64,000 nucleotides of DNA, taken from an uncultured bacterium (GTDB lineage Bacteria; Vulcanimicrobiota; Xenobia; Xenobiales; Xenobiaceae). Position 1 is the stretch's first letter; every line of letters begins with the position of its first letter. The position numbers and the translations under genes are program-made. Of this stretch, positions 28,779 through 57,377 are shown in pieces. The stretch covers positions 30,803-94,802 of the forward strand of contig CATXCY010000004.1 in assembly GCA_958366945.1 (NCBI GenBank), in the 5' to 3' direction. The notes beneath the pieces were generated by a model, which did no database searches, was not told the DNA's origin, and saw only the letters and a list, made by a program, of their open reading frames with translations.

Positions 28779-31700
28779 TTAACGACGCAATCTGCTCAAA
28801 AGAGATCTTATCTGTTTTTTCTCTTCAGCAGGAGCTAAACGTTCGGCACTTCTGTAAGCGTTGGCCGCTTCGTCAAGCTGTTGCAAACTACTGTAAGCTT
28901 TACCTAAATCTATATAGATACGCCAATCTTCAGGATCGGCTTCCGCTGCCTGTCGATAAGCCCAAGAAGCAGCTTCGTACTGACCTTGACGATAAAGCAC
29001 ACGCCCTTTGAGCCAGCCAAAATGACTAGCTAATTCTGGGAAATCTTCTGCCGCTTTACTAAAGACATCGACAGCATCCTGTAAACGACCACATTTACGG
29101 TAAGCCCGTCCCAATTGCTCAATAATAAGATGATTGCGCGGAGCTTCTTGACTAGCTTCAAGTAAAACTGACACAGCACTACTCCAGCGTTCCTGAGCGC
29201 CCAAAACATCTGCCTTAACCAGTAATAAAGGAGCATAGTGAGGAGCAGACTTGAGGCCATCTTCTACATTGGCTAAAGCTTTAGCATAATTTTTCTTGCT
29301 CAACCATACTTTAGCTAAGCCTATGCAAACTTCGGCATTATAGGGATCACGTGCCAAAATGGAAGAGAATATTTCCAAAGCCGACGCCGCGTAGCCCTGC
29401 GTTAAAAGGTTGCGACCAACACCCACATAAGCATTATAAACAAGTGCAAATCCGCTACTATCAGGAACAACGCTAAGGAAGCGACGGAAACAAAGTACAG
29501 CTTCATCATGACGTCCCTGAGTGTAATAAGCGCGGGCTAAAGGCAAGTTGAATAAGTACATATCGGGATCGCTGTCAATAGCGTTCTTAAATTCAATAAT
29601 TGCCAAATTGCTAAGCCCTTGGCCGGCCAAGGCCCTGCCAAGCATGCCTCTAGCTTGAGCATCATTAGGACGCAAAGCTAAACTGCTCTGTAATTGACGC
29701 ACAGCATCTTCGTAAGCCCCAAGTTCCAATAACATGATGCCCAAAGACTTAGGATAATCGGGATTGGTATAATCTAAGCGACAGGCTTTTACCAACTCAT
29801 TGATAGCGGGCTGATACTGGCCAGCGCAATAGTAAGCCATGGCTAGATCTTCACGATAAGCAGGATTTACCGGATGAGCTTCTACAGCTTTTTGGTACTG
29901 AGCCACAGAATCGGCATCGTAATGCTTTTTAAGATAGATACGACCCAAACGATTATAATTTTCGGCACAGGCAGGCTCAAGTTTCACAATTTGTTCGAAG
30001 TGATCCATGGCCTTTTCCAAAGAATTGCCTAAAATAAACACTTCACCCAAACGGCGATGTAAACTCAAACTGTTGGGGTGGAACTTTAAAGCTTGCTCTA
30101 AAGTTTTTACCGCTTCATTGAGCTGATTATGATGGCAGAATAAAGTAGAGAGCTTAATAGAAGCTTCTATGTGACCAGGCTCGTCTTCTAAAGCTTCACC
30201 CAATTCGTTGACAGCCTCTTGCTCTTTATTTTGGGCCATGTAAAGCGCGGCCCAATCAGTATGTACTCCAGCGTCGACGTGTATGCCAATTTGTAAAGCT
30301 TTTTCCAAAATAGCTTGCGCTTTAGAATTTTCGCCCAATTGCAAACAGACATTGGCCCAAAAGCTGTAAACACCACCATTTTGAGGTTGAGATGCACAGG
30401 CTCTCTCCAAGCAAGCCAAAGCTTCATTACAACGATTTTGAGTGACCAAGAACAAAGCCAGCTGATAGTTGACTTGGAAATCTTGCGGAGTTTGTTCCAG
30501 AGCTACGCAATATTGCTCGAAAGCTACTTCCGGACGATTTTGAGCAAAATATAAGAAAGCCAATCTGCAACGCAAGATATGGTCATATTCGCAGCGATCC
30601 AAAGCTTTATGCAAAGCAGAGATCACTAAATCTGGTTGCTCAGTTCTGGAGAAGAAATCGGCTAAAGCTACGTAAGGTTCGTGGCTATCAGGAGCGGCCT
30701 GGATGGCTTGCTCGATAAGTGAACGCGAACTACCGTAATCGCCAAGTTCCAAACGAGCGCGACCTAAACCAAGAAGGCCAAGCACACTATTGGGCTCACG
30801 AGCTAGTACTAAGCTAAATTCTGAAGCAGCTTCCTGGAAACGAGCCTCTTTCAAAGCATTTAATCCAGATAGGATTATGGATTCGCTGTCGCGCTCGGTT
30901 ACTTCTTCAACAGCTTTAGGCACAAGCATAGGCACACGCTCTGCTGCCGAAGGGGCTTTATCTTCGACGTTGGCCATCCAGGCATTGGACGCGACGGCCG
31001 CGCCGCTGCCTCCTACAAAGCGTCGAGAATTGAGAGAGCCACCCTCGGTCTTTTCGGCAACCGAAGAAGACTGTTCCGGCTCGGCCCAAGCCGAGGCAAC
31101 AGGCGGGGTGGCGTTGGAAACGGCAGGAGCCGGTTTTATTTCGGGAATCGGAATTTTGACCGGCTCAGAGGCAGCATTTTTCGAAGTAGTATCGGGCAGC
31201 GGCGCGGCAACGCTTGTTTCGTTGATAACTTTGCGCAAAGCGGGCCCAGGAGGTGGCATAACAGGCTTGGCAGGCGCTTCGGCTTGCACAGCTTTAGCCT
31301 GTTCCTGCGATTCGTAAGAAGCAACTGAAGTGCGAAAAGCCGCTTCTCCTCCGATAGTGACTACTCCGGCAGGCCTCTTCCTGGCTTGCTCATGCTGACG
31401 AGCCACATCTGCTTCGTAATCGGCAGCAGAATTTATAACTACAGCAGGCCTAGACTGTCCACGCAGCACACGCGAAGAAGAAGCGGCCGTCTGAAAAGCA
31501 GAGCGCCTGTCTGAAGACGCAGCAGGAACAGGCTGTGCCGCAACAGGAGCGGCTTGTACAGTTTCAGCTAAATGGCTCTGCCCTATGGGAAGACGTCTAA
31601 TACTAGAAGGATCGGGCAGCCGCTTAGGGCTAGCTTCAGTTGGAGCAGAAGCGCCTGCAGCAGAATCAGCGGTGCTGACTTTCGAGACATTGAAACGCGC

Positions 31701-32618
31701 CGAAGAAGGAGCTGGCAAACGAGAAGGAGTTTTGGTTCCGCTTAGTTTGCCCACAGAAGGCACACTGACACTGGAGGACGACGCGGAAGAAACAGCCTCA
31801 TGTTTGAGACAAGCGTCGAAGCTTTCGATCATGTCAGCAACGCTAGCAAAGCGGTCTTCGACCTTTTTGCGCAAAGAACGCAGCACTAAAGTTTCTAGCC
31901 CAGGGGAAATGTTCTTATTATAAAGGCGCGGCGAGGGAGCCGGCTCTTCCGCTACTTTGCGGAACATTTCTAAAGGGTTGCTGGCACTAAAAGGCCAACG
32001 ACCGGTGATAAGTTCAAAAAGGATAACGCCTAAAGAATATATATCGGTACGTTCGTCGGTAAGCTTACCCACTGCTTGCTCGGGAGAGACGTAGGCTGCA
32101 GTTCCCATAACCTGACCGACTTCTGTCAAGGAATGCTGGCCAGCGAAGAAAGCCAAACCGAAATCCATTACTTTAACCTGTCCGGTTTTGCTTACCATAA
32201 TATTATCAGGCTTCAAATCGCGATGGATGACGCCATTTTCATGTGCGTAGCGTACCGCTTCTAATACTTGGCGGAAAATTTTCAGGCGTTGGCGAAGTTG
32301 CTCATTGGTAGGTACTTCCTCATATTCAATCATATCGCTTAAGGAACTACCTTCAACATATTCCATAACGATAAAATGGATATCGTCAACTTGACCTATA
32401 TCGTGAATTTTAACAATATAAGGACTGTCTAAACGAGCTGCTGTTTTAGCTTCACGTAAAAAACGCTCAATAGACTTGGGGTTCATCTTTTTGGGAGGAA
32501 GAACTTTTATAGCTACTTGACGTTCTAGAACGGGATCTTCTCCGCGGTAAACTACGCCCATACCGCCTCTACCCAATTCTTCGATAACTTTATAGCGCCC
32601 AATATAGATGGTACCCAT
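28779..32618 (-). CDS. Ser/Thr protein kinase with a long C-terminal TPR-repeat region
   Basis: Hanks kinase subdomains (GRGGMGVVY, AIK, HRDLKPDN, DFGLA, APE), a Pro/Ala/Ser-rich linker, then more than 15 TPR-like repeats. Confidence 0.85.
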   Translation of the reverse strand: MGTIYIGRYKVIEELGRGGMGVVYRGEDPVLERQVAIKVLPPKKMNPKSIERFLREAKTAARLDSPYIVKIHDIGQVDDIHFIVMEYVEGSSLSDMIEYEEVPTNEQLRQRLKIFRQVLEAVRYAHENGVIHRDLKPDNIMVSKTGQVKVMDFGLAFFAGQHSLTEVGQVMGTAAYVSPEQAVGKLTDERTDIYSLGVILFELITGRWPFSASNPLEMFRKVAEEPAPSPRLYNKNISPGLETLVLRSLRKKVEDRFASVADMIESFDACLKHEAVSSASSSSVSVPSVGKLSGTKTPSRLPAPSSARFNVSKVSTADSAAGASAPTEASPKRLPDPSSIRRLPIGQSHLAETVQAAPVAAQPVPAASSDRRSAFQTAASSSRVLRGQSRPAVVINSAADYEADVARQHEQARKRPAGVVTIGGEAAFRTSVASYESQEQAKAVQAEAPAKPVMPPPGPALRKVINETSVAAPLPDTTSKNAASEPVKIPIPEIKPAPAVSNATPPVASAWAEPEQSSSVAEKTEGGSLNSRRFVGGSGAAVASNAWMANVEDKAPSAAERVPMLVPKAVEEVTERDSESIILSGLNALKEARFQEAASEFSLVLAREPNSVLGLLGLGRARLELGDYGSSRSLIEQAIQAAPDSHEPYVALADFFSRTEQPDLVISALHKALDRCEYDHILRCRLAFLYFAQNRPEVAFEQYCVALEQTPQDFQVNYQLALFLVTQNRCNEALACLERACASQPQNGGVYSFWANVCLQLGENSKAQAILEKALQIGIHVDAGVHTDWAALYMAQNKEQEAVNELGEALEDEPGHIEASIKLSTLFCHHNQLNEAVKTLEQALKFHPNSLSLHRRLGEVFILGNSLEKAMDHFEQIVKLEPACAENYNRLGRIYLKKHYDADSVAQYQKAVEAHPVNPAYREDLAMAYYCAGQYQPAINELVKACRLDYTNPDYPKSLGIMLLELGAYEDAVRQLQSSLALRPNDAQARGMLGRALAGQGLSNLAIIEFKNAIDSDPDMYLFNLPLARAYYTQGRHDEAVLCFRRFLSVVPDSSGFALVYNAYVGVGRNLLTQGYAASALEIFSSILARDPYNAEVCIGLAKVWLSKKNYAKALANVEDGLKSAPHYAPLLLVKADVLGAQERWSSAVSVLLEASQEAPRNHLIIEQLGRAYRKCGRLQDAVDVFSKAAEDFPELASHFGWLKGRVLYRQGQYEAASWAYRQAAEADPEDWRIYIDLGKAYSSLQQLDEAANAYRSAERLAPAEEKKQIRSLLSRLRR

Positions 32619-47856: not shown

Positions 47857-48660
47857 TTAACCAAATAGCTTCCCAACTACAGCTTCCAACACTCCGCCAC
47901 CAACAGATCTCGCTTTATCAGAGATAGTATAAATATCGACTTTGTCTCCTCTGGGATCACAATCGCCGATTTTTTCTCCCAATCTAACTTCAGTACCATT
48001 GCGAATCAGTCCACGCAATTTGCCACTTAATGAGACTTGCACCGGAATATCGTTGACCCAACCTATAACTTCACCTTCAACAACCATTTTTCCAAGCTTT
48101 GCTTCAGCTTGAAAAATGCCATTGCAAGGAGCTTTAAGCAGGCGACGCTTACTTTCACCAGCTATAATTCCGGGAATTCCTGTATCTGGAAGTGCACAAC
48201 CTTGGCAAATAACTTGACCCAAAGTATGACCGCGCATAGTTTCAATTACACAATCGGCATTATTGCCGACACAGAAACCTGGCCCTACTCCAATAACCCA
48301 ACGACTCGGATGGCGCTGGTCAGCAACTTCTTTTTTCAACATGCGAGCATCGACTAAAAAACGTACTTGCAATTTGTCAAAAATTTTGCCCTCTGGATCG
48401 ACCACCACTCCTATATAGTGATGTTGTTCTACACCTTGTAACTCAGCTTCGGAGTGAATTAGTCTAGCCTCAACATCTTCAATTTGCACTTTACCTTCCC
48501 ACACAGCCTCGCCAAAGCAAACACTGCGCCGCACCATGCGCGGATTAGCCAATTCACTTATAATAATGGGAAAACCGGCTCTAAACAGACGATGAGCAAT
48601 ACCGCTAGCTAAATCGCCACCACCGCGAATGCCAACTAAAGGGACTTTATAATTTATCAT
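47857..48660 (-). CDS. Selenium-dependent molybdenum hydroxylase system protein, YqeB/EF2563-like (tentative)
   Basis: N-terminal GIRGGGDLASGIAHRLFRAGF, as I recall for the EF2563/YqeB family; recognition is from memory only. Confidence 0.45.
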   Translation of the reverse strand: MINYKVPLVGIRGGGDLASGIAHRLFRAGFPIIISELANPRMVRRSVCFGEAVWEGKVQIEDVEARLIHSEAELQGVEQHHYIGVVVDPEGKIFDKLQVRFLVDARMLKKEVADQRHPSRWVIGVGPGFCVGNNADCVIETMRGHTLGQVICQGCALPDTGIPGIIAGESKRRLLKAPCNGIFQAEAKLGKMVVEGEVIGWVNDIPVQVSLSGKLRGLIRNGTEVRLGEKIGDCDPRGDKVDIYTISDKARSVGGGVLEAVVGKLFG

Positions 48661-49378
48661 TACCTATATTTCTAGATAGCGGGAGTTTGAAATTTTCCTG
48701 ACGACAACAGCTGGCATAGGCATCCCAGGTGTCACAATCAGTAAAGATCTCCGGCCCCGTTGTTTCATAAAAAAGACAACGCGAGGAGTATTTTTTTAAA
48801 ATAGCTCCTCCTCCTCTGTCACCACTTAGTTGCATAAGCTCAGGCCAAAAATCACGGCCAAAAATTACTGGATGGCCCTGTCTGCCTTGCCAAGTAGGAA
48901 CAATAATAGTGCCTCTTCTTTCTGCTTGAGTAAGATTGTAGTTGGCTTTAATAATATGGTTGATAGTTTCCGCTTTTAATAAAGGTAAATCTGCTAAACA
49001 GATAGCTGCACAATCTAAGTCATCTTCTTGTGGAAAGAGATTTTGCAATTTTTCCAAACCTACTCTTAAGGAAGAAGCCATGCCTGAAGCCCAATCGCTA
49101 TTGATGGCCAAACTGAAACGTTTATTTTTAGCTATATGTTCGGCCTGACAATTATTTTGCCAAAGCCCTTCCCGCAACCAAGGAGAAATTTGTAAAATAT
49201 CTTCTGCTCGTGATCCGAGCACAAAAATATTCCAAACGGCTTGGCTGGCCAAGCAAGTAAAACAAGCATGTTCCAGCAAATTTTTCTCGTTTTTCCAAGG
49301 CAAAAGCTGCTTGGGCTCACACATGCGTGCCGAGCCTCCAGCGCCTAAAAGAATTAAGGCACATCTATTTTTCGACAT
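48647..49378 (-). CDS. MobA/MocA-like nucleotidyltransferase (molybdenum cofactor cytidylyl/guanylyltransferase family)
   Basis: ALILLGAGGSARMCEPKQLLPW N-terminal NTP-transferase motif; 14-nt overlap with the YqeB-like gene. Confidence 0.55.
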   Translation of the reverse strand: MSKNRCALILLGAGGSARMCEPKQLLPWKNEKNLLEHACFTCLASQAVWNIFVLGSRAEDILQISPWLREGLWQNNCQAEHIAKNKRFSLAINSDWASGMASSLRVGLEKLQNLFPQEDDLDCAAICLADLPLLKAETINHIIKANYNLTQAERRGTIIVPTWQGRQGHPVIFGRDFWPELMQLSGDRGGGAILKKYSSRCLFYETTGPEIFTDCDTWDAYASCCRQENFKLPLSRNIGNDKL

Positions 49379-49446
49379 AATATTTCAGGATATTTTCCGT
49401 TCTAAAATATAGACTGCTTCCAAAATAGAACTTTAGGAGGCAGGTA

Positions 49447-50883
49447 ATGAGCGATTTAATATATTTATTGAAATTCTTTTTTGGCAAAGATAACTTTCGT
49501 CCCGGTCAGCGCGAAGTTGTAGAGGCCTTGCTTTCCGGACGGGATGTGCTGGCCCTTTGGCCTACTGGAGCAGGTAAGTCTTTAACTTATCAATTGCCAG
49601 CACTTATTATGCCTGGATTAACTGTCGTAGTTTCTCCTTTGATAGCCTTAATGGAAGACCAGGTTAGACAATTGCAAAAACGCAATTTGCCGGCAGCTTA
49701 TCTAAGCAGTTCTCAGTCTATCTCAGAAAAAGTACACATTTTAAGTTTGCTTGAACAAAAAAAGCTCAAAATGTTGTTTGCCGCTCCAGAACGTTTGCTA
49801 GAAGATGATTTTCTAATCAGGTTGCAAAAACAAACGACTTCACTTCTAGCTGTAGATGAAGCCCATTGTATAAACCAGTGGGGCCATGATTTTCGCCATA
49901 GCTATTTACGCTTAGGTGAAGTTGTCAAAGCCTTGCGACCGCGCTCAATTTTAGCTGTAACAGCCACAGCCGATCTAGAAAGTGCTCAACAAATAAGCTT
50001 AAGCTTAGGCTTAGATCGCCCCTTACTTTCGCGCTTATCGTTGGATAGGCCCAATCTTAATTACAAAGTGATCAAAAGCTCCCCTAAGCAGCGCCCTTGG
50101 CTGGCCTTGGCTCACTTGCACCATGGCTCAGGGTTGCCCGCCGTAATTTATGTAGCCCGCCGCAATCAAGCAGAACAAATAGCCGCTTTTTTCAGCTGCC
50201 AACAATTTAGGGCTGCTCCTTACCATGCCGGTTTGTCTACCGAAAATAGACAAAAAATTTTACAAGGTTTTTTAGAAGAAAAATTTGATTTAATAGCCGC
50301 TACAATAGCTTTCGGCATGGGTGTAGACAAACCGAATATACGTCAAGTAATTCATATGGCTCCTCCGGTAGCTCCAGAAAGCTACTTCCAAGAGTCGGGG
50401 CGGGCCGGACGCGACAGATTACCGGGGCGCTGCTTGCTTATGTGGGCGCCGGAAGACTTTAAGTATTGGCAAAATTGCCTGGAAGATAAATTTCCGCAAA
50501 TGCAAGAGATCGATCAATTTGTGCGTCTAGCTTCGTCAAAAAATCTAACGATTTCCGAAATGAGACGCACAAATTTTAGGGCTATGAGTTCCGGCGCCTG
50601 GACCATGCTAGTTAGGGCCGCTCTAGGATATGAAGCCGATCCTAAAGCTATAAGCGAACTTAGGCTTAAACCTGAGCATTTATTTAATTACTTTGCAGCC
50701 TTAAAAGAAGCGGCTCAACGGCGGTTAGATATTATGGAAAATTATTGCCGCACTAAGTTATGCCGCCGCCAAGTCTTGCTGCAAAGTTTGGATCAAGCCA
50801 GTAAAGATCATTGTGGCAATTGCGACAATTGTCTACATAGACAACGTTTAACCCACAAGTTCAAGCATGACGGAGCGGCTTAA
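49447..50883 (+). CDS. recQ: RecQ-family ATP-dependent DNA helicase (short form, no HRDC)
   Basis: FRPGQREVVEALLSGRDVLALWPTGAGKSLTYQLPAL, DEAHCINQWGHDFR, and a Zn-binding Cys cluster near the C-terminus. Confidence 0.85.
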   Translation: MSDLIYLLKFFFGKDNFRPGQREVVEALLSGRDVLALWPTGAGKSLTYQLPALIMPGLTVVVSPLIALMEDQVRQLQKRNLPAAYLSSSQSISEKVHILSLLEQKKLKMLFAAPERLLEDDFLIRLQKQTTSLLAVDEAHCINQWGHDFRHSYLRLGEVVKALRPRSILAVTATADLESAQQISLSLGLDRPLLSRLSLDRPNLNYKVIKSSPKQRPWLALAHLHHGSGLPAVIYVARRNQAEQIAAFFSCQQFRAAPYHAGLSTENRQKILQGFLEEKFDLIAATIAFGMGVDKPNIRQVIHMAPPVAPESYFQESGRAGRDRLPGRCLLMWAPEDFKYWQNCLEDKFPQMQEIDQFVRLASSKNLTISEMRRTNFRAMSSGAWTMLVRAALGYEADPKAISELRLKPEHLFNYFAALKEAAQRRLDIMENYCRTKLCRRQVLLQSLDQASKDHCGNCDNCLHRQRLTHKFKHDGAA

Positions 50884-50908
50884 GCGAAAGAGCGGCCCTA
50901 AACAAAAA

Positions 50909-51706
50909 CTAAAATTCGCGGTAAACTATTTGGCCTTGCTTATTGGCTGCCTGGCTTAAAATAGTCACTACATTCCAATGCTTACGCACTTGGGCAGCCA
51001 ACTCGGCCAAAAAATTTGGCTGCTCGTTTTCGGCCTGGCTGAAAACGAGCACTTTAGCTTGTGTAGGCAAAAGTGCCAAATAGGCGCAGGCCAAACGCAC
51101 GAACTGGCCTGCGCCTATCACGGCGCCCGTCTCACAATGCAGAAGCTGGCACATAAGTTCCGGTCTGTGCACTTGCCCCTCTTCTACGCGCTTGCCCAAA
51201 CCTTGCATACCTATAACAGCTACACCTAAATCAGCCTGAGTATAAAAAACAGGTTCATGAGCAGCGTGGGCCTTTACGGGCAAGCGCTTAGAGCCATCAG
51301 CTTCTGCCAACAAATAGTCTAATCCCGGCCAGCAACTTATTTTGTCTAGCTCGTCTGGAGTAAAACCTATCCATTTAGTGTGTTCTGCATTGAGGCGAGC
51401 TAGACCACACAGGCGGCCCGTCTCCGCTTGGGCAGCAACTCCGGCAGCCGAAGCAGGCCAACATAGCTCACGCCAATGCATTTCGGCTGCTTCTAAACCG
51501 CCTATTTCCGGGCCGCCACACTCTAGAAGCTGGCCGGGATAAAAATGCTGCCGGGCGCCGGGCCAAGCCAAATGGGTACTAGTAGTAAAAATAACTTTGG
51601 CTTGGCCGCACTTTTGCTGGGCCAAAAGTTTGGCGTGCTCTAGCATAAAGGTAGTTTTGCCGCCGCTGCCAATAATTTCCCAGCGCTTAAAATTGGCTAA
51701 ATTCAT
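50909..51706 (-). CDS. YqeC-like selenium-dependent hydroxylase accessory protein (tentative)
   Basis: IIGSGGKTTFM P-loop-like N-terminus and the expected size; sits next to the YqeB-like and MocA-like genes. Confidence 0.4.
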   Translation of the reverse strand: MNLANFKRWEIIGSGGKTTFMLEHAKLLAQQKCGQAKVIFTTSTHLAWPGARQHFYPGQLLECGGPEIGGLEAAEMHWRELCWPASAAGVAAQAETGRLCGLARLNAEHTKWIGFTPDELDKISCWPGLDYLLAEADGSKRLPVKAHAAHEPVFYTQADLGVAVIGMQGLGKRVEEGQVHRPELMCQLLHCETGAVIGAGQFVRLACAYLALLPTQAKVLVFSQAENEQPNFLAELAAQVRKHWNVVTILSQAANKQGQIVYREF

Positions 51707-51716
51707 CGCGAAAATG

Positions 51717-52613
51717 CCTCCAGAAATTTCTTTTCAAGGGCAGCGGCCAACTGGCGTTGAAGCAAAAGGCCCTTATATTGGCCTTATAAGAACCGGAAAG
51801 GTAAAGAAAAAAGTTTTGGCTGCTGACAAATACGCTTACCCAAATATTATACCCGGAGCGGTTTCTTTTATTCCCGTAATTACGGATAAAGAACTTGAAC
51901 CGGGACAGGATTTGATTTCTATCCTATTAGAAGCAGCTCCTATTCCTTTAGCCCAAGGAGATATTGTAGTTGTTACTCACAAAGCAGTAGCCAAAACCGA
52001 AGGCCGATTAGTCAAACTAAGCCAAGTGCAACCTTCACCTTTAGCTCTGGATTACGGAAAACGCTATAATAAAGACGCTAGACTAGTAGAATTGGTGTTG
52101 CAAGAAAGTGCCGCCATAGTGCGCATGAGCCGCGGATGCCTAATTGTAAAAACCAAGCAAGGATTCACTTGCGCCAATGCCGGCATCGATTTATCGAATA
52201 TAGGCCAAGGTTCGGCGACTAATCAAGAGCCGACAGCTTGTCTATTGCCCAAAGATCCGGATCTCTCGGCTCAAGGTTTGTATACAAACTTGCAAGCACA
52301 GCTCGGATTTGCTGTGCCAATTGTAATTAGCGATTCCTTCGGCCGACCTTGGCGCGAGGGTATAGTAAATGTAGCGATAGGATGTTGCGGTTTTGATCCT
52401 TTTACAGACTATCGCGGCCAAGCTGACAGTGCCGGCCGCACTTTGAAAGTTACGCGTATGGCTAGCGCAGATGCTCTAGCTTCTGGAGCCGAATTGGCTT
52501 GCGGCAAACTAAAAAGAGCTCCCTTTGTAATTGTCCGCGGCTTTAACTGGCAACCCAGCACTTTAACAGCTCAAGCCTTGTTGCGGCCGGAAGAGAAGAA
52601 CTTTTTCCCTTAA
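51717..52613 (+). CDS. cofE: Coenzyme F420-0:L-glutamate ligase (CofE family)
   Basis: GDIVVVTHKAVAKTEGR, ISDSFGRPWREG, DYRGQADSAGRTL and PFVIVRG match CofE/FbiB-N signatures. The start is moved to the first ATG after the convergent gene (ORF-track start 51597). Confidence 0.7.
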   Translation, partial: PPEISFQGQRPTGVEAKGPYIGLIRTGKVKKKVLAADKYAYPNIIPGAVSFIPVITDKELEPGQDLISILLEAAPIPLAQGDIVVVTHKAVAKTEGRLVKLSQVQPSPLALDYGKRYNKDARLVELVLQESAAIVRMSRGCLIVKTKQGFTCANAGIDLSNIGQGSATNQEPTACLLPKDPDLSAQGLYTNLQAQLGFAVPIVISDSFGRPWREGIVNVAIGCCGFDPFTDYRGQADSAGRTLKVTRMASADALASGAELACGKLKRAPFVIVRGFNWQPSTLTAQALLRPEEKNFFP

Positions 52614-52615
52614 GC

Positions 52616-53593
52616 TTAGATAGATTCAGTCCTTTTCCAAGCTGGAATCAATTCCTCAGAACACATACGCAAAAATTCATTTTGGTTGCGGCCGCAATTG
52701 TGAATATACACTTCGTCAAAGCCTAAAGCTGCACTTTCTTGCAACATAACCAAAATGTCGGCAGGACTAGATGTGATAATTACTCGATTATCGAAGTTTT
52801 CCGGGCGTACCGTCTTAGCCATTTCGGCTAGTACTTCGGGAAAACGAATATCGCCTTTGGGGAAATTTAAGCCACCATTAGGCCATTCTTGCATAGCTGC
52901 ATTCAGAGCTTTTTCTATCGTAACATCCCAACTTACGTGCACTTGCAAGCGGGCTATTTTTCTAACTGAGCCGCTGCTTTCTCTAAATTTGCCCATCAAT
53001 TTTTGCAACTTCTCTCTACTGGCCCATACAGTTAGCCAGGTATTAGCCAGAGAAGCCGCTTTGGCGCACAAATAAGGGCCTGAAGTAGCAATCATAAGCC
53101 CTGGAGGCACTTCAGGAAGAGTATACAAACGCAAGCTTTCAGTTTTGAAATATTCGCCTTTAAAACGAACTTCTTGGCCGCTCCATAGCTTCGCGATCAA
53201 ACTGACAGCCTCTAAGAGTTGTTGCACTCTCTCTTTGGGCTCAGGCCAATAAGAAGCAAAAACATGTTCGTTAAGCGCTTCACCTACCCCCAGCCCCAAA
53301 GTGATACGACCAGGACAAAGGCATTCCAACGTGGCTGCTGCCTGAGCCAAAATGACAGGATGACAGCGCCCTCCCGCACAGCTGACTCCAGTAGAAAGGG
53401 GCAATTCCGTACATTGGCTCAAAGCTCCCAGCATTGTCCAGGCATGGCTGGCCTGGCCTTGCCACGGCACCCAGGGTTGCAAATGATCTGAGATCATTAA
53501 GCCAGCAAATCCAGCCTTTTCAGCCCCTTTAGCTTGCTCAATCAACTGCGCGGGCGCAAATTGTTCAGCACTTAAGCAAAAACCCAACTTCAT
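52616..53593 (-). CDS. F420-dependent luciferase-like (LLM) oxidoreductase, glucose-6-phosphate dehydrogenase (Fgd) family
   Basis: MKLGFCLSAEQFAPAQLIEQAKGAEKAGFAGLMISDHLQPW closely parallels the Fgd1 N-terminus (LKLGYKASAEQF...SDHFQPW). Confidence 0.7.
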   Translation of the reverse strand: MKLGFCLSAEQFAPAQLIEQAKGAEKAGFAGLMISDHLQPWVPWQGQASHAWTMLGALSQCTELPLSTGVSCAGGRCHPVILAQAAATLECLCPGRITLGLGVGEALNEHVFASYWPEPKERVQQLLEAVSLIAKLWSGQEVRFKGEYFKTESLRLYTLPEVPPGLMIATSGPYLCAKAASLANTWLTVWASREKLQKLMGKFRESSGSVRKIARLQVHVSWDVTIEKALNAAMQEWPNGGLNFPKGDIRFPEVLAEMAKTVRPENFDNRVIITSSPADILVMLQESAALGFDEVYIHNCGRNQNEFLRMCSEELIPAWKRTESI

Positions 53594-53598
53594 GGCTA

Positions 53599-54639
53599 CT
53601 ATACCAAATCTAAATTGGGTTTAGCATCCAGAGTTAAAGGAGAGCGCCAACCTTGAGCGGCCAATTCCCAACCGGCTTTGGCAATCATAACGGCATTGTC
53701 AGTACACAAATCAAACTTAGGACAAACAAAAGTTATACCTAAACGCTTAGCTCCTTCAGCCAGCCTTTCACGCAAAGCTTTATTGGCGGCAACACCACCA
53801 GCTAAAGCCAAAGACTTAGCTCCACAACGACGCACAGCTCTAAAAGCTTTAGTACTGAGCACATCGACAACAGCTTCTTGGAAAGAGGCACAAATATCAG
53901 CGTCACTGCCGCGCTCTTCGGACTGTAAATGGAGCAATACAGCAGTTTTTAAGCCAGAAAACGAAAACTCATATCCTTGGTTAATCATGGGACGGGCAAA
54001 AGGAATAGCATTTTTATTCCCTTTGAGAGCCATTTCTTGAATTTTGGGGCCACCAGGATAAGCCATACCTAAAGCTTTGGAGACTTTGTCGAAAGCTTCA
54101 CCAGCAGCATCGTCCCGCGTAGAGCCGAGCACTTCATAAGAACCGGGCCCGTCAACTTTAACCAACATAGTATGGCCGCCGGAAACCAAAAGACAAATCA
54201 TGGGTAATTCCAAATTGGAATTTTCCAGAAGAGCAGAAAAGATATGACCTTCCATATGGTTGACACCTATTAAGGGAATATCCAAGCATCCAGCTAAAGT
54301 TTTAGCAGCAGCTACTCCCAACAGTACAGCTCCCACCAAACCAGGCCCATAGGTTACAGCCACAGCCTCCAAATCGCTAAACTTGAGATTGACTTTTTCC
54401 AGTGCCTCTTCGATCATAGGATTGATAACTTCCATATGAGCGCGACAAGCTACCTCGGGCACTACTCCACCGTATTTAGCATGTAAAGGAATTTGCGTAG
54501 AAACTAAATTGGCTAGAATCTCACGTCCATCTTTCAAGATAGCGGCAGAAGTTTCGTCGCAAGAAGACTCTAAACCTAAAATATACTTAGGATAGAACGG
54601 ATCGCACTTAATATAATTGGCATTGCTGCGATTACTCAT
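53599..54639 (-). CDS. tsaD: tRNA N6-adenosine threonylcarbamoyltransferase
   Basis: ILGLESSCDETSAAI, HMEGH and GGVAANKALR motifs. Confidence 0.9.
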   Translation of the reverse strand: MSNRSNANYIKCDPFYPKYILGLESSCDETSAAILKDGREILANLVSTQIPLHAKYGGVVPEVACRAHMEVINPMIEEALEKVNLKFSDLEAVAVTYGPGLVGAVLLGVAAAKTLAGCLDIPLIGVNHMEGHIFSALLENSNLELPMICLLVSGGHTMLVKVDGPGSYEVLGSTRDDAAGEAFDKVSKALGMAYPGGPKIQEMALKGNKNAIPFARPMINQGYEFSFSGLKTAVLLHLQSEERGSDADICASFQEAVVDVLSTKAFRAVRRCGAKSLALAGGVAANKALRERLAEGAKRLGITFVCPKFDLCTDNAVMIAKAGWELAAQGWRSPLTLDAKPNLDLV

Positions 54640-54648
54640 TATTTCTAC

Positions 54649-55170
54649 TTAGTCCAATCCTTTCAAATGACAATTCTCGGCCAAGCTTTTTACTTGCTGT
54701 AAATAAGCTGGCTCTTGCATGTTGTCAACCCGCATGATAATAGCATCATAACGGTTTTCATAATATTTTTTACGGATTCCCACAGCCTTGAAGCCGAAAC
54801 GTTTATAGACAGATAAAGCCGGCTCGTTGTTAAAACGAACTTCCAGAGTAGCAGCTTCCACTCCGTCTCCAAGCCCTTTGGCAATTAGATTGGCAAAAAG
54901 ATAGACGCCCAAGCCGTGCCCTTGCCATTGAGGATCAATAGTTACGGTACTGACTTCCAACTCGCCTAACAAATTCCAAGAGCCAGCATAACCAATTAAT
55001 TTGCCATCGGCCAAAAGCACCAAATAGCGAGCATAGCCACGCTCGATGTCAAAAGCAAAAGACTCTTTAGGCCAAGCTTCTTTTTCACCATAGACTAAAA
55101 GTTCTAATTCAGAAGCTTGATCGAGAAAATCTTTAGTAAATTGGCAAATTTCTATTTTGGGAAGAGCCAT
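54649..55170 (-). CDS. rimI: Ribosomal-protein-alanine N-acetyltransferase (GNAT)
   Basis: GNAT motifs; canonical tsaB-rimI-tsaD context. Confidence 0.7.
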   Translation of the reverse strand: MALPKIEICQFTKDFLDQASELELLVYGEKEAWPKESFAFDIERGYARYLVLLADGKLIGYAGSWNLLGELEVSTVTIDPQWQGHGLGVYLFANLIAKGLGDGVEAATLEVRFNNEPALSVYKRFGFKAVGIRKKYYENRYDAIIMRVDNMQEPAYLQQVKSLAENCHLKGLD

Positions 55171-55174
55171 TTTT

Positions 55175-55891
55175 TTAGCCTAACTGAACGTCAGCCGAAC
55201 GTAAATAAACAGGAGCCAGTTCCAAAATGCCCTGAGTGTGACCAGCTTTAAAAGCGCTCTCACCTAAGGAAGCAACCCAAGAACCACGCACTTGAGCATC
55301 GACAGCTGGAGAGACTAAGACAGAGCCTTTTTCCTTCAGCACTTCCTGATAGCGCACAGGGCCGCTACCTACAGCTAATTTGCACCCTAAACGAGTCGCT
55401 TCCTCGGCCAATTCTTGAGGTGAATAGGCTTTATCGGCACACAAACGGCGTAAAGTACCATCAGATGTATCAAAAAACGAAGCAAATATCTCGCCTCTTC
55501 TGGCATCTAAACCGGCCAGAAGGCAAGGACATCCGGGATGAGCTGCAGCCAAAGCTTCTAGAGTGTTAATACCAACTAAAGCACAACCTACAGTTTGAGC
55601 AATCGTCCTAGCTGTAACTATACCCAGGCGCAAACCGGTAAAGGATCCGGGGCCTACGGTTACAGCCACGGCACCTACATCTCCAAAGGAAGCGCCAATT
55701 TCTTCAAGAGCCCCTTTAATGGAAGGAAAAAGGCGACACAAATGGGATCGAGGGCTAAAACCGCCACGTTCAGCCAAGCAGCGACCATCTTGAACCAAAG
55801 CTATGCTGAAACTTTCACCTGAGCAATCAATGCCGATAATTAAAGACTTATTATAATTTATTTTCTTGGGAATCATTTTGCAAAGCCTCAA
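55175..55891 (-). CDS. tsaB: tRNA threonylcarbamoyladenosine biosynthesis protein TsaB
   Basis: Inactive Kae1/YeaZ fold (LIIGIDCSGESFSIAL) next to rimI and tsaD. Confidence 0.8.
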   Translation of the reverse strand: MRLCKMIPKKINYNKSLIIGIDCSGESFSIALVQDGRCLAERGGFSPRSHLCRLFPSIKGALEEIGASFGDVGAVAVTVGPGSFTGLRLGIVTARTIAQTVGCALVGINTLEALAAAHPGCPCLLAGLDARRGEIFASFFDTSDGTLRRLCADKAYSPQELAEEATRLGCKLAVGSGPVRYQEVLKEKGSVLVSPAVDAQVRGSWVASLGESAFKAGHTQGILELAPVYLRSADVQLG

Positions 55892-56441
55892 CTATTTTTT
55901 GACCACGACCGCCATCAGACTCAAAGACCAATTCTCGTCCGGTAGGGCCTAAATCTGTGCGATAATAAATTTTTAAGCGTAAGCAATCTTTAGGCAACAG
56001 CTCTTCTGTACGCTCCGACCACTCTATACAAGCTATACCATCAGTACCGATATATTCTTCAGCACCGATATTAAGCAATTCTTCACTGTTTTCTAAACGG
56101 TAAGCATCAAAATGGTAAATGGGAATGCGCCCTTCATAAATATGCATAAGCACAAATGTAGGGCTGGAGACACGCTCAGAAGCTCCCATAGCTCTAGCTA
56201 ATCCGCGCACAAAAGTAGTTTTGCCAGCTCCCAAATCTCCATAAAAAGCGATCACATCAGCCGGACGCAAAATTTCAGCTAAGCGCTCTCCTACACTTTC
56301 AGTTTCAGCGTCATTGTGGGTAATAATTCTAAAATTCGTTTTGCTCATATCTTCTAACTGTCTTTTTTGTTTATTAACTTGACAAGAAAAGAGCTTCTCT
56401 CTGCGACTAAACGAAGTGAGAAGCTTTGTATCTATGATCAA
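55851..56441 (-). CDS. tsaE: tRNA t6A ATPase TsaE (true start probably near 56345)
   Basis: IAFYGDLGAGKTTFVRGL Walker A; the ORF track has N-terminal overread. Confidence 0.8.
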   Translation of the reverse strand: MIIDTKLLTSFSRREKLFSCQVNKQKRQLEDMSKTNFRIITHNDAETESVGERLAEILRPADVIAFYGDLGAGKTTFVRGLARAMGASERVSSPTFVLMHIYEGRIPIYHFDAYRLENSEELLNIGAEEYIGTDGIACIEWSERTEELLPKDCLRLKIYYRTDLGPTGRELVFESDGGRGQKIVEALQNDSQENKL

Positions 56442-56489: not shown

Positions 56490-57377
56490 CTAAGAATGGC
56501 TATCACCATATTTTTGACGATAGAGCTGTTCTAAAATATTGGAGCTCTTCTCGGTAGCTCTCTCTTCACGTCCTTGCAACTCTTTGCGCACAGACACTAG
56601 TTCATCGCGAACCTGAGCTACAGAGCTATAACGGCGCTCTGGAGCGTACTCCATGCACTTGGCCAAAACGGCTTCCAACCAGTGGTTGGCATTAGGCTTA
56701 AGCTTGCGCAACGGAGGCACATTAAAATTAAACTTGGCCATATTGGCTTGGGTTAAGCACCAATACAGAGTGGCACCTAAAGAGTAGATATCGCCGCGCA
56801 AGTCACAATCGAAACGATTATATTTTTCCGGAGGTGCAAAACCTGGACTTACCATAGTAAAGGTGCGCGGACTCTTACTGGGAGCAAAATAACGAGCTAC
56901 ACCAAAATCGATAACTTTTAAGTCACCATTGTAAGTGAGCATAACATTGGAAGGCTTTAAGTCACCCAATAAAATAGGATAAGGCTTGCGAGAGTGCAAG
57001 TAGCTCAAAACATCGGATAACTTTATGCCCCACTCCAGTACCGTGTCTTGGGTAATACCATCAGACTCAAGTACTTCTTGGTGCATAGTCTTACCAGCGA
57101 TCCACTCCATAACGATGTAGAAGTACACGCCCTGGTTAAAATAGGCCATAACTTTAGGCAAGCCTGGATGGGACAAAGACATCAAAATTTTTGCTTCGAG
57201 CTCAAATTGCACATTGAGGTCTTTAAATTCAACTTGCGAGAATCCCTCAGTGCATATAGCCTTGACAGCCACCAGTGCACCATTAGCCTTATTATCCTTG
57301 GCTAAGTAAACCGTGGCAAAATTACCATGGCCTAAATTACTTATAAGTCTGTACCGCCCCTGTAGCTCAGATGCCAT
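56490..57377 (-). CDS. Stand-alone Ser/Thr protein kinase (catalytic domain only)
   Basis: GHGNFATVYLAKD, VAVK, GDLKPSN, DFGVA and APE motifs. Confidence 0.8.
   Translation of the reverse strand: MASELQGRYRLISNLGHGNFATVYLAKDNKANGALVAVKAICTEGFSQVEFKDLNVQFELEAKILMSLSHPGLPKVMAYFNQGVYFYIVMEWIAGKTMHQEVLESDGITQDTVLEWGIKLSDVLSYLHSRKPYPILLGDLKPSNVMLTYNGDLKVIDFGVARYFAPSKSPRTFTMVSPGFAPPEKYNRFDCDLRGDIYSLGATLYWCLTQANMAKFNFNVPPLRKLKPNANHWLEAVLAKCMEYAPERRYSSVAQVRDELVSVRKELQGREERATEKSSNILEQLYRQKYGDSHS

What the first reader, a model, noticed from the sequence alone, without database searches (positions are those of the whole stretch)
51597..53593. F420 module (CofE ligase plus Fgd-like F420-dependent LLM oxidoreductase)
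The CofE signatures (VVVTHKAVAKTEGR, DYRG, VIVRG) and the Fgd-like N-terminus (KLGFCLSAEQFAP...SDHLQPW) are both read directly in the translations; no other F420 biosynthesis gene is in the window. F420 enzymes are best known from Actinobacteria and methanogens. Here they sit in a genome that otherwise looks Gram-negative-like (pilins, M16 peptidases, SPOR protein), and they are immediately contiguous with the selenium-dependent molybdenum-hydroxylase accessory genes.
Basis: partly seen in the sequence, partly recalled or inferred. Interest (0 to 1): 0.55.

Follow-up and report, generated by a model that had tools for sequence, protein, structure and literature searches.

The report
F420 ligase plus F420-type sugar dehydrogenase
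A gut-associated bacterium of the little-known phylum Eremiobacterota carries two intact, well-conserved genes for using the deazaflavin cofactor F420; they are the leftover half of a larger F420 gene cluster still present in its relatives, so the finding is real but mostly ordinary.

Summary
The + strand encodes a single-domain CofE, the F420-0:gamma-glutamyl ligase (TIGR01916 222.7 bits, cutoff 180.65). Its real start is most likely TTG 51816, not 51597. The - strand (52616-53593) encodes a luciferase-like oxidoreductase of the F420/G6P family (TIGR03557 277.9, cutoff 210.4). [quoted passage not shown]

The organism is a 'Candidatus Bruticola'/UBP9 bacterium (Vulcanimicrobiota = Eremiobacterota, class Xenobia). 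That phylum has a Gram-negative-type envelope, so the context is not anomalous.

Three more distant relatives carry cofD(-cofC)-cofE-LLM close to the same tsaE-tsaB-rimI-tsaD operon. The window pair therefore looks like a vertically inherited remnant. In the gut clade, cofD and cofC are missing from this locus.

Both genes are under strong purifying selection (dN/dS about 0.05 and 0.03) and keep the family's conserved residues. No other F420 gene lies in the 64 kb. I could not test whether cofC, cofD or FO synthase genes exist elsewhere in the genome.

The adjacency to yqeC/yqeB is clade-specific synteny with no sign of a functional link. Verdict: a new member of known families, of modest interest.

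The parts
51816..52613 (+). cofE: single-domain coenzyme F420-0:L-glutamate (gamma-glutamyl) ligase, 265 aa. The mechanical ORF begins at 51597, and an alternative ATG at 51714 gives the 299-aa form that some pipelines call.
   Evidence: Family and structure matches:
- TIGR01916 222.7 bits (cutoff 180.65) and PF01996 E 2.3e-62.
- 37% identical to A. fulgidus CofE, PDB 2g9i/2phn/7uld.

Conserved residues:
- All 74 columns that are at least 95% conserved in 120 bacterial homologues are kept.
- The residues aligned to A. fulgidus D109 and D150 are kept.
- T151->S and E208->K are the bacterial consensus.

Start codon: inferred from in-frame stops upstream in L015 and L016.

Selection: dN/dS 0.05-0.06 against L015 and L016.
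52616..53593 (-). [quoted passage not shown]
   Evidence: Family scores:
- TIGR03557: 277.9 bits, cutoff 210.4 (passes).
- TIGR03885 'flavin_revert': 270.9, cutoff 398.7 (fails).
- TIGR03554 (actinobacterial FGD): 170.7, cutoff 420 (fails).

Solved relatives:
- Best PDB hit 9hav-9hay, E 5.5e-98, 49% identity. This is T. roseum Fgd (PMC12750041).
- Mtb FGD1: 34% identity.

Residues: H37, W41, E105, N108, G69-V70, K246 and R270 are conserved.

Selection: dN/dS 0.02-0.03.
51707..51815 (.). 109-nt divergent intergenic region between yqeC (-) and cofE (+). It holds the presumed cofE promoter and leader, with the ribosome-binding site GGAAAGG.
   Evidence: The sequence is conserved between the window, L015 and L016 and contains a small hairpin. 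A promoter-like match lies at 51666-51693 on the + strand. There is no Rfam hit. Any regulatory role is inferred only.
53599..56441 (-). tsaE-tsaB-rimI-tsaD (t6A tRNA-modification) genes directly upstream of the LLM and co-directional with it. The LLM start codon lies 5 bp after the tsaD stop, so the LLM is probably the last gene of this transcription unit.
   Evidence: ORF coordinates come and Pfam assignments. The same tsa genes flank cofE and/or the LLM in all relatives examined. Co-transcription is inferred from the spacing.
50909..51706 (-). yqeC (accessory gene for selenium-dependent molybdenum hydroxylase maturation), the divergent neighbour of cofE. Listed as context; I do not consider it part of the F420 pair.
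   Evidence: TIGR03172 115.1 bits, cutoff 73.05. The adjacency to cofE is seen only in the gut clade and not in L009, L010, L013 or L048.

Best explanation
The two genes encode working enzymes of deazaflavin (F420) metabolism in a gut-associated Xenobia (Eremiobacterota) bacterium.

(1) CofE is a stand-alone GTP-dependent ligase. It adds gamma-linked glutamates to F420-0 to make F420-n.

(2) The LLM is a Thermomicrobium-type Fgd. A conserved His/Trp/Glu active site oxidises glucose-6-phosphate, or a closely related sugar phosphate held by a Lys/Lys/Arg pocket, and passes the hydride to C5 of F420. The resulting F420H2 would feed reductases encoded elsewhere.

The pair was inherited vertically. 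It is what remains, at the ancestral position next to the tsaE-tsaB-rimI-tsaD operon, of a cofD-(cofC)-cofE-fgd cluster that more distant relatives still have. In this clade the LLM has been inverted and now sits 5 bp downstream of tsaD, so it is probably expressed with that housekeeping operon. cofE has its own divergent promoter region.

Shown here: family membership, conserved residues, synteny history and purifying selection. Inferred: the substrate, F420 dependence, co-transcription, and that F420-0 is supplied by cofC, cofD and FO-synthase genes located elsewhere in the genome.
For: Family membership:
- The curated HMM cutoffs are passed for cofE and for the F420/G6P LLM family.
- The LLM's best solved relative by far is T. 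roseum Fgd (331 bits, against 159 for Mtb FGD1). Its structure providers describe that enzyme as oxidising G6P while reducing F420 (PMC12750041).
- T. roseum Fgd itself, and the LLMs that sit inside cofD/cofC/cofE clusters (L013, L048), show the same near-tie between TIGR03557 and TIGR03885. The near-tie is therefore not a sign of FMN use.

Conserved residues:
- Catalytic H37/W41/E105, the cis-peptide pair G69-V70, and phosphate-pocket K246/R270 plus the family-invariant K195 are all conserved. The roles of the Mtb and Rhodococcus equivalents were tested by mutagenesis (PMC5352752).
- CofE keeps 74 of 74 highly conserved columns.

Selection:
- dN/dS is 0.05-0.06 for cofE and 0.02-0.03 for the LLM, similar to neighbouring housekeeping genes. 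There are no frameshifts or internal stops in any of the six lineages compared.

Synteny series:
- L013: FHA-CofD-CofC-CofE-LLM, with tsaD-rimI-tsaB-tsaE further along.
- L048: FHA-like gene-CofD-CofE-LLM, with tsaD further along.
- L010: FHA-CofD-x-rSAM-CofE-x-LLM-tsaD.
- Gut clade: yqeC / cofE / LLM / tsaD.
- cofC is already outside the cluster in L010 and L048, which shows that pathway genes are scattered in this group.
Against: - No cofC, cofD, cofG/cofH or fbiC lies in the 64-kb window.
- I could assign no CofD to the gut Xenobia clade in a 5.8-billion-protein search, in a profile search of 1.84 billion representatives, or from source names. All of these are weak negatives.
- The clade's LLM departs from an otherwise at least 85%-conserved residue at 30 of 165 positions. 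Several are next to functional motifs (F38L beside the catalytic His, P73A and Y77C just after the cis-peptide bulge, G190W near K195). Substrate or cofactor preference may therefore have shifted.
- One clade member (L009) keeps cofE but has no LLM at the locus.
- No biochemical data exist for any protein of this clade.
Confidence: 0.7

Rival explanations
1. Orphan pair with cofactor salvage. The gut Xenobia clade has lost cofC, cofD and FO synthase. It takes up F420 (F420-0 or short-tailed F420-n) released by gut methanogens. CofE extends or restores the glutamate tail, which would retain the cofactor and tune its affinity. The Fgd-type enzyme keeps it reduced.
For: - cofD and cofC are missing from the ancestral position in every gut-clade locus but present there in the outgroups.
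- No abundant low-GC CofD cluster comparable to the clade's CofE and LLM clusters (46-50 member sequences) appears among the top CofD hits.
- Both genes are nevertheless under strong purifying selection.
- The habitat contains F420-rich methanogens (my own knowledge).
Against: - Absence elsewhere in the genome was not tested. The CofD searches would miss a homologue below about 43% identity to the query, and the outgroup CofDs are only 46-52% identical to one another.
- cofC is already unlinked in L010 and L048, so unlinked genes are normal here.
- I know of no described F420 importer (my own knowledge; the F420 review PMC8498797 contains no text on salvage, scavenging or uptake).
- Salvage of the more diffusible FO would still need cofC and cofD.
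Confidence: 0.18
2. Neofunctionalised pair. CofE glutamylates another substrate, for example a folate, as the CofE-like FolC2 of Chlamydia does. The LLM has reverted to FMN or acts on a different substrate, so no F420 is involved.
For: - The LLM nearly ties on the 'flavin_revert' FMN model (270.9 against 277.9).
- It has many clade-specific substitutions near the active site.
- The window encodes folate enzymes (MTHFR, Fmt), so folates are used.
- The Chlamydia precedent is my own knowledge.
Against: - The FMN model cutoff is missed by 128 bits, and the F420-dependent T. roseum Fgd scores even higher on that model (347).
- The folate-type ligase model TIGR04132 scores only 72 against a cutoff of 350.
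- CofE keeps every highly conserved column of bona fide bacterial CofEs, with only 10 mild clade-specific changes in 102 conserved columns.
Confidence: 0.08
3. Decaying remnants. The two genes are non-functional leftovers of a lost pathway.
For: The partner genes cofD and cofC are gone from the locus, and one clade member lacks the LLM there.
Against: - The reading frames are intact in all lineages.
- dN/dS is 0.02-0.06 at dS of about 1 or more.
- 74/74 and 87/88 highly conserved columns are retained.
Confidence: 0.02

Closest known systems
[quoted passage not shown]
   Same: It is the best solved relative (E 5.5e-98, 331 bits, 49% identity over 317 residues). The catalytic His/Trp/Glu, the Gly-Val cis-peptide position and the K/K/R positions are the same. 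The NCBIfam score pattern is the same: it passes TIGR03557 and falls below the TIGR03885 and TIGR03554 cutoffs.
   Different: - Identity is only 49%.
- The gut clade has replaced residues that are otherwise near-invariant (P73A, Y77C, aromatic 75 to G, F38L, G190W).
- The host is a gut Xenobia bacterium, presumably anaerobic (my inference), rather than an aerobic thermophile.
- The gene sits behind tsaD.
- Activity is untested.
Actinobacterial FGD1 (M. tuberculosis Rv0407, PDB 3B4Y; Rhodococcus Rh-FGD1, PDB 5LXE)
   Same: Same fold family and the same catalytic residues. The Lys259 and Arg283 equivalents are conserved (PMC5352752).
   Different: Identity is 34%. The protein fails the FGD equivalog model TIGR03554 (170.7 against 420). 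The Lys198 position is Ser, with a family-specific Lys three residues later.
Archaeal and Chloroflexi single-domain CofE (A. fulgidus CofE, PDB 2PHN/2G9I/7ULD)
   Same: Single-domain architecture of about 250-265 aa with no FbiB-type C-terminal nitroreductase domain. The residues aligned to A. fulgidus D109 and D150 are conserved, along with the NAGID, DSFGR and VRG motifs.
   Different: Identity to the archaeal enzyme is 37%, and 50-57% to Chloroflexi and Rubrobacter enzymes. Here it is unlinked from cofD and cofC.
cofD-cofC-cofE-fgd clusters of related uncultured bacteria (L013 GCA_037975375.1; L048 GCA_024690685.1; L010)
   Same: CofE is 53-56% identical and the LLM 50-52% identical. All lie next to the same tsaE-tsaB-rimI-tsaD genes (TsaD 69-74% identical in L010 and L048; the L013 tsaD is split and was not compared).
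   Different: Those loci contain genuine cofD (TIGR01819 264-294 bits, cutoff 257) and, in L013, cofC. The window locus has neither, and its LLM is inverted relative to cofE.
Chlamydial CofE-like folate gamma-glutamate ligase (TIGR04132)
   Same: Same PF01996 fold, and a CofE homologue in a genome region without other F420 biosynthesis genes.
   Different: The window protein scores 72 against a cutoff of 350 on that model and passes the true cofE model.

Membership tests
CofE, F420-0:gamma-glutamyl ligase (TIGR01916 / PF01996) | Score above the curated equivalog cutoff | tested here: met
   TIGR01916 222.7 bits against 180.65; PF01996 210.8 against 25.
CofE, F420-0:gamma-glutamyl ligase (TIGR01916 / PF01996) | Conserved active-site and metal-binding positions, and family-invariant residues | tested here: met
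   The residues aligned to A. fulgidus D109, D150, K45, E47 and R154 are kept. T151->S and E208->K match the bacterial consensus. 74 of 74 columns that are at least 95% conserved are kept. Which residues bind metal or GTP is my recollection of the A. fulgidus structure paper.
CofE, F420-0:gamma-glutamyl ligase (TIGR01916 / PF01996) | Occurs with cofC, cofD and FO synthase in the same genome | not testable with these tools
   None of these genes is in the window. They are present next to the orthologue in L010, L013 and L048.
CofE, F420-0:gamma-glutamyl ligase (TIGR01916 / PF01996) | GTP-dependent glutamylation of F420-0 | not testable with these tools
   Needs a biochemical assay.
F420-dependent G6P-dehydrogenase family of LLMs (TIGR03557; Class I type B deazaflavoenzymes) | Score above the curated subfamily cutoff | tested here: met
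   TIGR03557 277.9 bits against 210.4.
F420-dependent G6P-dehydrogenase family of LLMs (TIGR03557; Class I type B deazaflavoenzymes) | Catalytic His40/Trp44/Glu109 (Mtb numbering) and the non-prolyl cis-peptide position | tested here: met
   H37, W41, E105, N108 and G69-V70 are present and invariant in 122 homologues. The cis conformation itself cannot be tested from sequence.
F420-dependent G6P-dehydrogenase family of LLMs (TIGR03557; Class I type B deazaflavoenzymes) | Phosphate pocket Lys198/Lys259/Arg283 that defines G6P-using members | tested here: inconclusive
   K246 and R270 align with Lys259 and Arg283. Lys198 aligns with S192 (N in T. roseum Fgd), but K195 is invariant in this subfamily (PMC5352752).
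F420-dependent G6P-dehydrogenase family of LLMs (TIGR03557; Class I type B deazaflavoenzymes) | Uses F420 rather than FMN | not testable with these tools
   Support is indirect: the closest solved relative is F420-dependent, and orthologues sit inside cofD/cofC/cofE clusters.
Actinobacterial FGD equivalog (TIGR03554) | Score above the curated cutoff | tested here: not met
   170.7 against 420. T. roseum Fgd also fails, at 204.8, so this model is specific to the actinobacterial clade.
TIGR03885 'flavin_revert' FMN-dependent LLM clade | Score above the curated cutoff | tested here: not met
   270.9 against 398.7. T. roseum Fgd scores 347.1, L013 320 and L048 291.
TIGR04132 putative folate gamma-glutamate ligase (Chlamydia type) | Score above the curated cutoff | tested here: not met
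   72.1 against 350.

The most novel reading that the evidence does not exclude
The animal-gut Xenobia ('Ca. Bruticola'/UBP9) clade has lost FO synthase, cofC and cofD. It keeps only cofE and a remodelled Fgd because it lives on deazaflavin cofactor released by co-resident methanogens. CofE re-glutamylates imported F420 so that it is retained, and the Fgd recharges it. This would be the first case of F420 cross-feeding or salvage by a non-producer.
Probability: 0.18. Interest if true: 0.7.

Novelty: new member of a known kind. Interest (0 to 1): 0.3.

Why it matters
F420 is best known from methanogens and Actinobacteria. The 2021 review of its distribution (PMC8498797) does not mention Eremiobacterota. 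This locus shows that a widespread animal-gut lineage of that phylum keeps two F420 enzymes under strong selection, so non-methanogen gut bacteria may use deazaflavin redox chemistry.

The practical value is a clear and cheap follow-up. Scanning the available MAGs for cofC, cofD, cofG and cofH would decide between an ordinary dispersed pathway and a far more interesting cofactor-salvage lifestyle. The clade-specific changes around the Fgd active site also give concrete targets for enzymology.

Tried and rejected
1. Looking for CofD in the gut clade.
- Searching the 5.8-billion-protein set with the L010 CofD gave no hit named Bruticola or UBP9 in the top 120. Identities there are already 43-49%, so a clade CofD could be hidden.
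- I screened hits by amino-acid composition for proteins from low-GC genomes. I then looked up names and contexts. This yielded L048, a useful outgroup, plus L014 and L049, which are unrelated. None is a gut-clade CofD.

It returned only Chloroflexota, Proteobacteria and Acidimicrobiales, so it says nothing about Xenobia.

3. A profile search of 1.84 billion representatives has no taxonomy attached and did not resolve the question.

4. Protein accession numbers were compared to see whether the CofD MCR5663155.1 comes from the same MAG as the L009 CofE (MCR4783482.1). They come from different assemblies.

5. Literature searches for Xenobia, UBP9, Bruticola or Eremiobacterota together with F420 found no analysis of F420 in this group.

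6. Rejected: a functional link with yqeB, yqeC and the mocA-like gene. The adjacency exists only within the collinear gut clade.

7. Rejected: the mocA-like gene at 48647-49378 acting as a cofC substitute. Its best hit is MocA/YgfJ, it has no CofC model hit, and it overlaps yqeB.

8. Rejected: the 51597 and 51714 start codons.

9. Structure prediction was not run. A 49%-identical crystal structure already fixes the fold, and no coordinates can be inspected here.
Full report
**Observation**

The region holds two long ORFs.
- ORF 51597-52613 (+) contains the quoted CofE signatures.
- ORF 52616-53593 (-) begins MKLGFCLSAEQFAP...SDHLQPW.

Family scans confirm both.
- The + strand protein matches PF01996 (E 2.3e-62). 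It passes NCBI's curated equivalog model for coenzyme F420-0:L-glutamate ligase (TIGR01916, 222.7 bits against a cutoff of 180.65).
- The - strand protein matches PF00296 (E 1.1e-40). It passes the TIGR03557 'F420_G6P_family' model (277.9 against 210.4).

The mechanical ORF start at 51597 overlaps yqeC. Some pipelines call a 299-aa protein from ATG 51714. In the relatives L015 and L016 the upstream frame is closed by stop codons, and the gene starts at the TTG that corresponds to window 51816, preceded by GGAAAGG. The gene is therefore most likely 51816-52613 (265 aa).

**Rest of the window**

I scanned nearly all ORFs of 150 aa or more against Pfam. I also used the precomputed Pfam table for 40.7-63 kb and looked by eye, without a family scan, at the eight short ORFs left in the gaps. 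There is no CofC, CofD, CofG/CofH, FbiC, Fno or FDOR-like gene.

The neighbours are:
- yqeB (TIGR03309, 308 bits against 220);
- a MocA-like nucleotidyltransferase, below its cutoff;
- a RecQ-family helicase;
- yqeC (TIGR03172, 115 against 73), all;
- on the other side tsaD, rimI, tsaB, tsaE and a Ser/Thr kinase.

**Organism**

The identical CofE protein occurs in NCBI MAG GCA_004554425.1 and in many gut-metagenome assemblies. Members of its 90% cluster are named 'Candidatus Bruticola sp.' and 'bacterium UBP9_UBA11836'. Candidatus Bruticola belongs to Vulcanimicrobiota (Eremiobacterota), class Xenobia. That lineage is reported from animal and human guts.

The only cultured member of the phylum has a Gram-negative-type envelope with an outer membrane, and type IV pilus genes (PMC9758169). 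The phylum is classified in the kingdom Bacillati, which also holds Chloroflexota and Actinomycetota (my own knowledge). F420 genes there are not a phylogenetic surprise.

**What the LLM is**

Its best solved relative by a wide margin is PDB 9hav/9haw/9hax/9hay (E 5.5e-98, 331 bits; 49% identity over 317 residues). The next hits are M. tuberculosis FGD1 (159 bits, 34%), Rhodococcus FGD1, fHMAD and Adf.

The 54 chains and the figure legend citing 9HAY identify these entries as the Thermomicrobium roseum Fgd of CASP16 target T1278. Its providers describe it as oxidising glucose-6-phosphate while reducing F420, and they solved substrate complexes (PMC12750041). T. roseum is an abundant F420 producer (PMC8498797).

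Against FGD1, the alignment shows the following:
- the catalytic His40/Trp44/Glu109 are conserved (H37/W41/E105), along with Asn112;
- the cis-peptide position is conserved (G69-V70);
- phosphate-pocket Lys259 and Arg283 are conserved (K246, R270);
- Lys198 aligns with Ser, as it aligns with Asn in T. roseum Fgd, but a Lys three residues later (K195) is invariant in this subfamily.

The roles of the three basic residues were shown by mutagenesis in Rh-FGD1 (PMC5352752).

The near-tie with the FMN 'flavin_revert' model (TIGR03885, 270.9 against a cutoff of 398.7) is not evidence for FMN. T. roseum Fgd scores 347 on that model. The LLMs encoded inside cofD/cofC/cofE clusters score 291-320.

**What CofE is**

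It is a single-domain enzyme with no FbiB-type C-terminal domain. It is 37% identical to A. fulgidus CofE and 50-57% identical to enzymes from Chloroflexi, Rubrobacter and others. All 74 columns that are at least 95% conserved in 120 bacterial homologues are retained. The two differences from the archaeal active-site residues (T151S, E208K) are the bacterial consensus. The Chlamydia-type folate ligase model is far from met (72 against 350).

**History of the locus**

The same arrangement occurs in every member of the gut clade examined: yqeC <- -> cofE <- LLM <- tsaD <- rimI <- tsaB <- tsaE <- kinase. The members are listed below.

| Locus | CofE identity to window |
|---|---|
| L001-L006 | identical |
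| L015 | 91% |
| L016 | 86% |
| L007/L008 (Bruticola) | 76% |
| L011 | 67% |

L009 (71%) keeps cofE beside tsaD but has no LLM or yqeC there.

Three more distant uncultured relatives carry the orthologues inside F420 biosynthesis clusters near the same tsa genes:
- L013: FHA-CofD-CofC-CofE-LLM (CofD 294 bits, CofC 134 bits, both above cutoff);
- L048: an FHA-like gene-CofD-CofE-LLM; this is the nearest outgroup, with TsaD 74% identical;
- L010: FHA-CofD-x-rSAM/SPASM-CofE-x-LLM-tsaD.

The window pair is therefore a vertically inherited remnant of a cofD-(cofC)-cofE-fgd cluster. In the gut clade, cofD and cofC are gone from this position and the LLM is inverted. It now lies 5 bp behind tsaD and is convergent with cofE, with stop codons 2 nt apart. 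No terminator-like hairpin lies between them.

The yqeC adjacency exists only within the clade, whose 20-kb neighbourhood is collinear anyway. It therefore carries no independent functional signal.

**Are the genes functional?**

Nei-Gojobori estimates against L015 and L016 are given below.

| Gene | dN/dS |
|---|---|
| cofE | 0.05-0.06 |
| LLM | 0.02-0.03 |
| tsaD | 0.013-0.014 |
| rimI | 0.04-0.07 |
| recQ | 0.10 |
| yqeC | 0.16 |

dS is about 1 or more, so the ratios are approximate, but purifying selection is clear. All copies are intact, so the decay hypothesis is rejected.

The clade's LLM is nevertheless distinctive. At 30 of 165 positions that are at least 85% conserved in other homologues it carries a different, clade-fixed residue. 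Examples are F38L next to the catalytic His, P73A (Pro in every other homologue in the alignment), Y77C and aromatic 75 to Gly just after the cis-peptide bulge, plus G180A, G190W, D254V and H280I. CofE has only 10 mild changes in 102 conserved columns. This points to a shift in the LLM's substrate or cofactor pocket on the branch leading to the gut clade, followed by constraint.

**The open question**

The open question is where F420-0 comes from. I could not inspect whole genomes, and the indirect attempts were inconclusive.
- A search with the L010 CofD listed no Bruticola or UBP9 protein in the top 120. The outgroup CofDs are only 46-52% identical to each other, so a clade CofD could fall below the listing.
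- Composition screening, name look-ups and context look-ups found only outgroups or unrelated organisms.
- The genome-collection scan relied on exact 8-mers and was uninformative.
- A profile search of 1.84 billion representatives has no taxonomy.

cofC is already unlinked in L010 and L048, and an orphan CofE would have no substrate. I therefore judge a dispersed pathway the most likely case (about 0.7). Salvage of methanogen-derived cofactor is a real but less likely alternative (about 0.18).

**Verdict**

The 'odd host' is explained by taxonomy, and the selenium/molybdenum neighbourhood is coincidental synteny. This is a new member of known enzyme families in a poorly studied gut lineage, of modest interest. 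There is one cheap decisive test: an HMM scan of the clade's MAGs for cofC, cofD, cofG and cofH. A negative result would make the finding considerably more interesting.

Noticed in passing
window 51720-51815: The roughly 95-nt region upstream of the cofE start is conserved at the DNA level between the window, L015 and L016. It contains a small hairpin (AAGGCC-loop-GGCCTT, about 51763-51790). There is no Rfam match. It could be just the divergent yqeC/cofE promoter region or a leader element.
   Followed up: partly
window 52616-53593 (residues 38, 73-77, 180, 190, 254, 280 of the LLM): The gut-clade LLMs share 30 fixed departures from positions that are otherwise at least 85% conserved. These include the motif GVSCAGGRCHP in place of the family consensus GVTxPGYRYHP, right after the cis-peptide bulge that backs the deazaflavin ring. 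This suggests a remodelled pocket.
   Followed up: partly
window 9473-10543 (-), with 3864-9166: A 356-aa protein carries an ADP-ribosyltransferase exoenzyme/toxin domain (PF03496, E 1.3e-19). It sits next to three pilin-like proteins with N-terminal methylation motifs and an 839-aa ORF with no Pfam hit.
   Followed up: no
window 47857-51706: The accessory genes for the selenium-dependent molybdenum cofactor are split. yqeB and the mocA-like gene overlap by 14 nt at 47857-49378, and yqeC lies at 50909-51706, with an oppositely oriented RecQ-family helicase between them. No molybdenum hydroxylase gene lies in the window. The arrangement is conserved in the gut clade.
   Followed up: partly
window 28779-32618 (-): A 1279-aa protein with an N-terminal Ser/Thr kinase domain and a long TPR array. 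A second, 295-aa kinase lies at 56490-57377, directly upstream of tsaE, and is 95-99% conserved across the clade (dN/dS 0.005-0.01).
   Followed up: no
window 17271-18586 (-): A 77-aa ferredoxin-like ORF with two Cys clusters (18353-18586) lies just upstream of MTHFR (17271-18215). This could be an electron-donor pairing.
   Followed up: no
L009 10001-11961 (GCA_024682355.1): A clade member (CofE 71%, TsaD 82% identical) keeps cofE next to tsaD but has neither the LLM nor yqeC at the locus. CofE retention does not depend on the adjacent LLM.
   Followed up: partly
L049 3094-10957 (GCA_964414565.1): An unrelated MAG has a compact cluster: LLM, LLM, a 6-phosphogluconate dehydrogenase-like gene, cofE, a 997-aa FbiC-like FO synthase and cofD. 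Linking Fgd-type genes to the next step of the oxidative pentose-phosphate route is a neat arrangement.
   Followed up: no
L010 4721-5983 and 3522-4583: In this relative a radical SAM/SPASM maturase-like gene and a 353-aa protein with no family hit are inserted between cofD and cofE.
   Followed up: no
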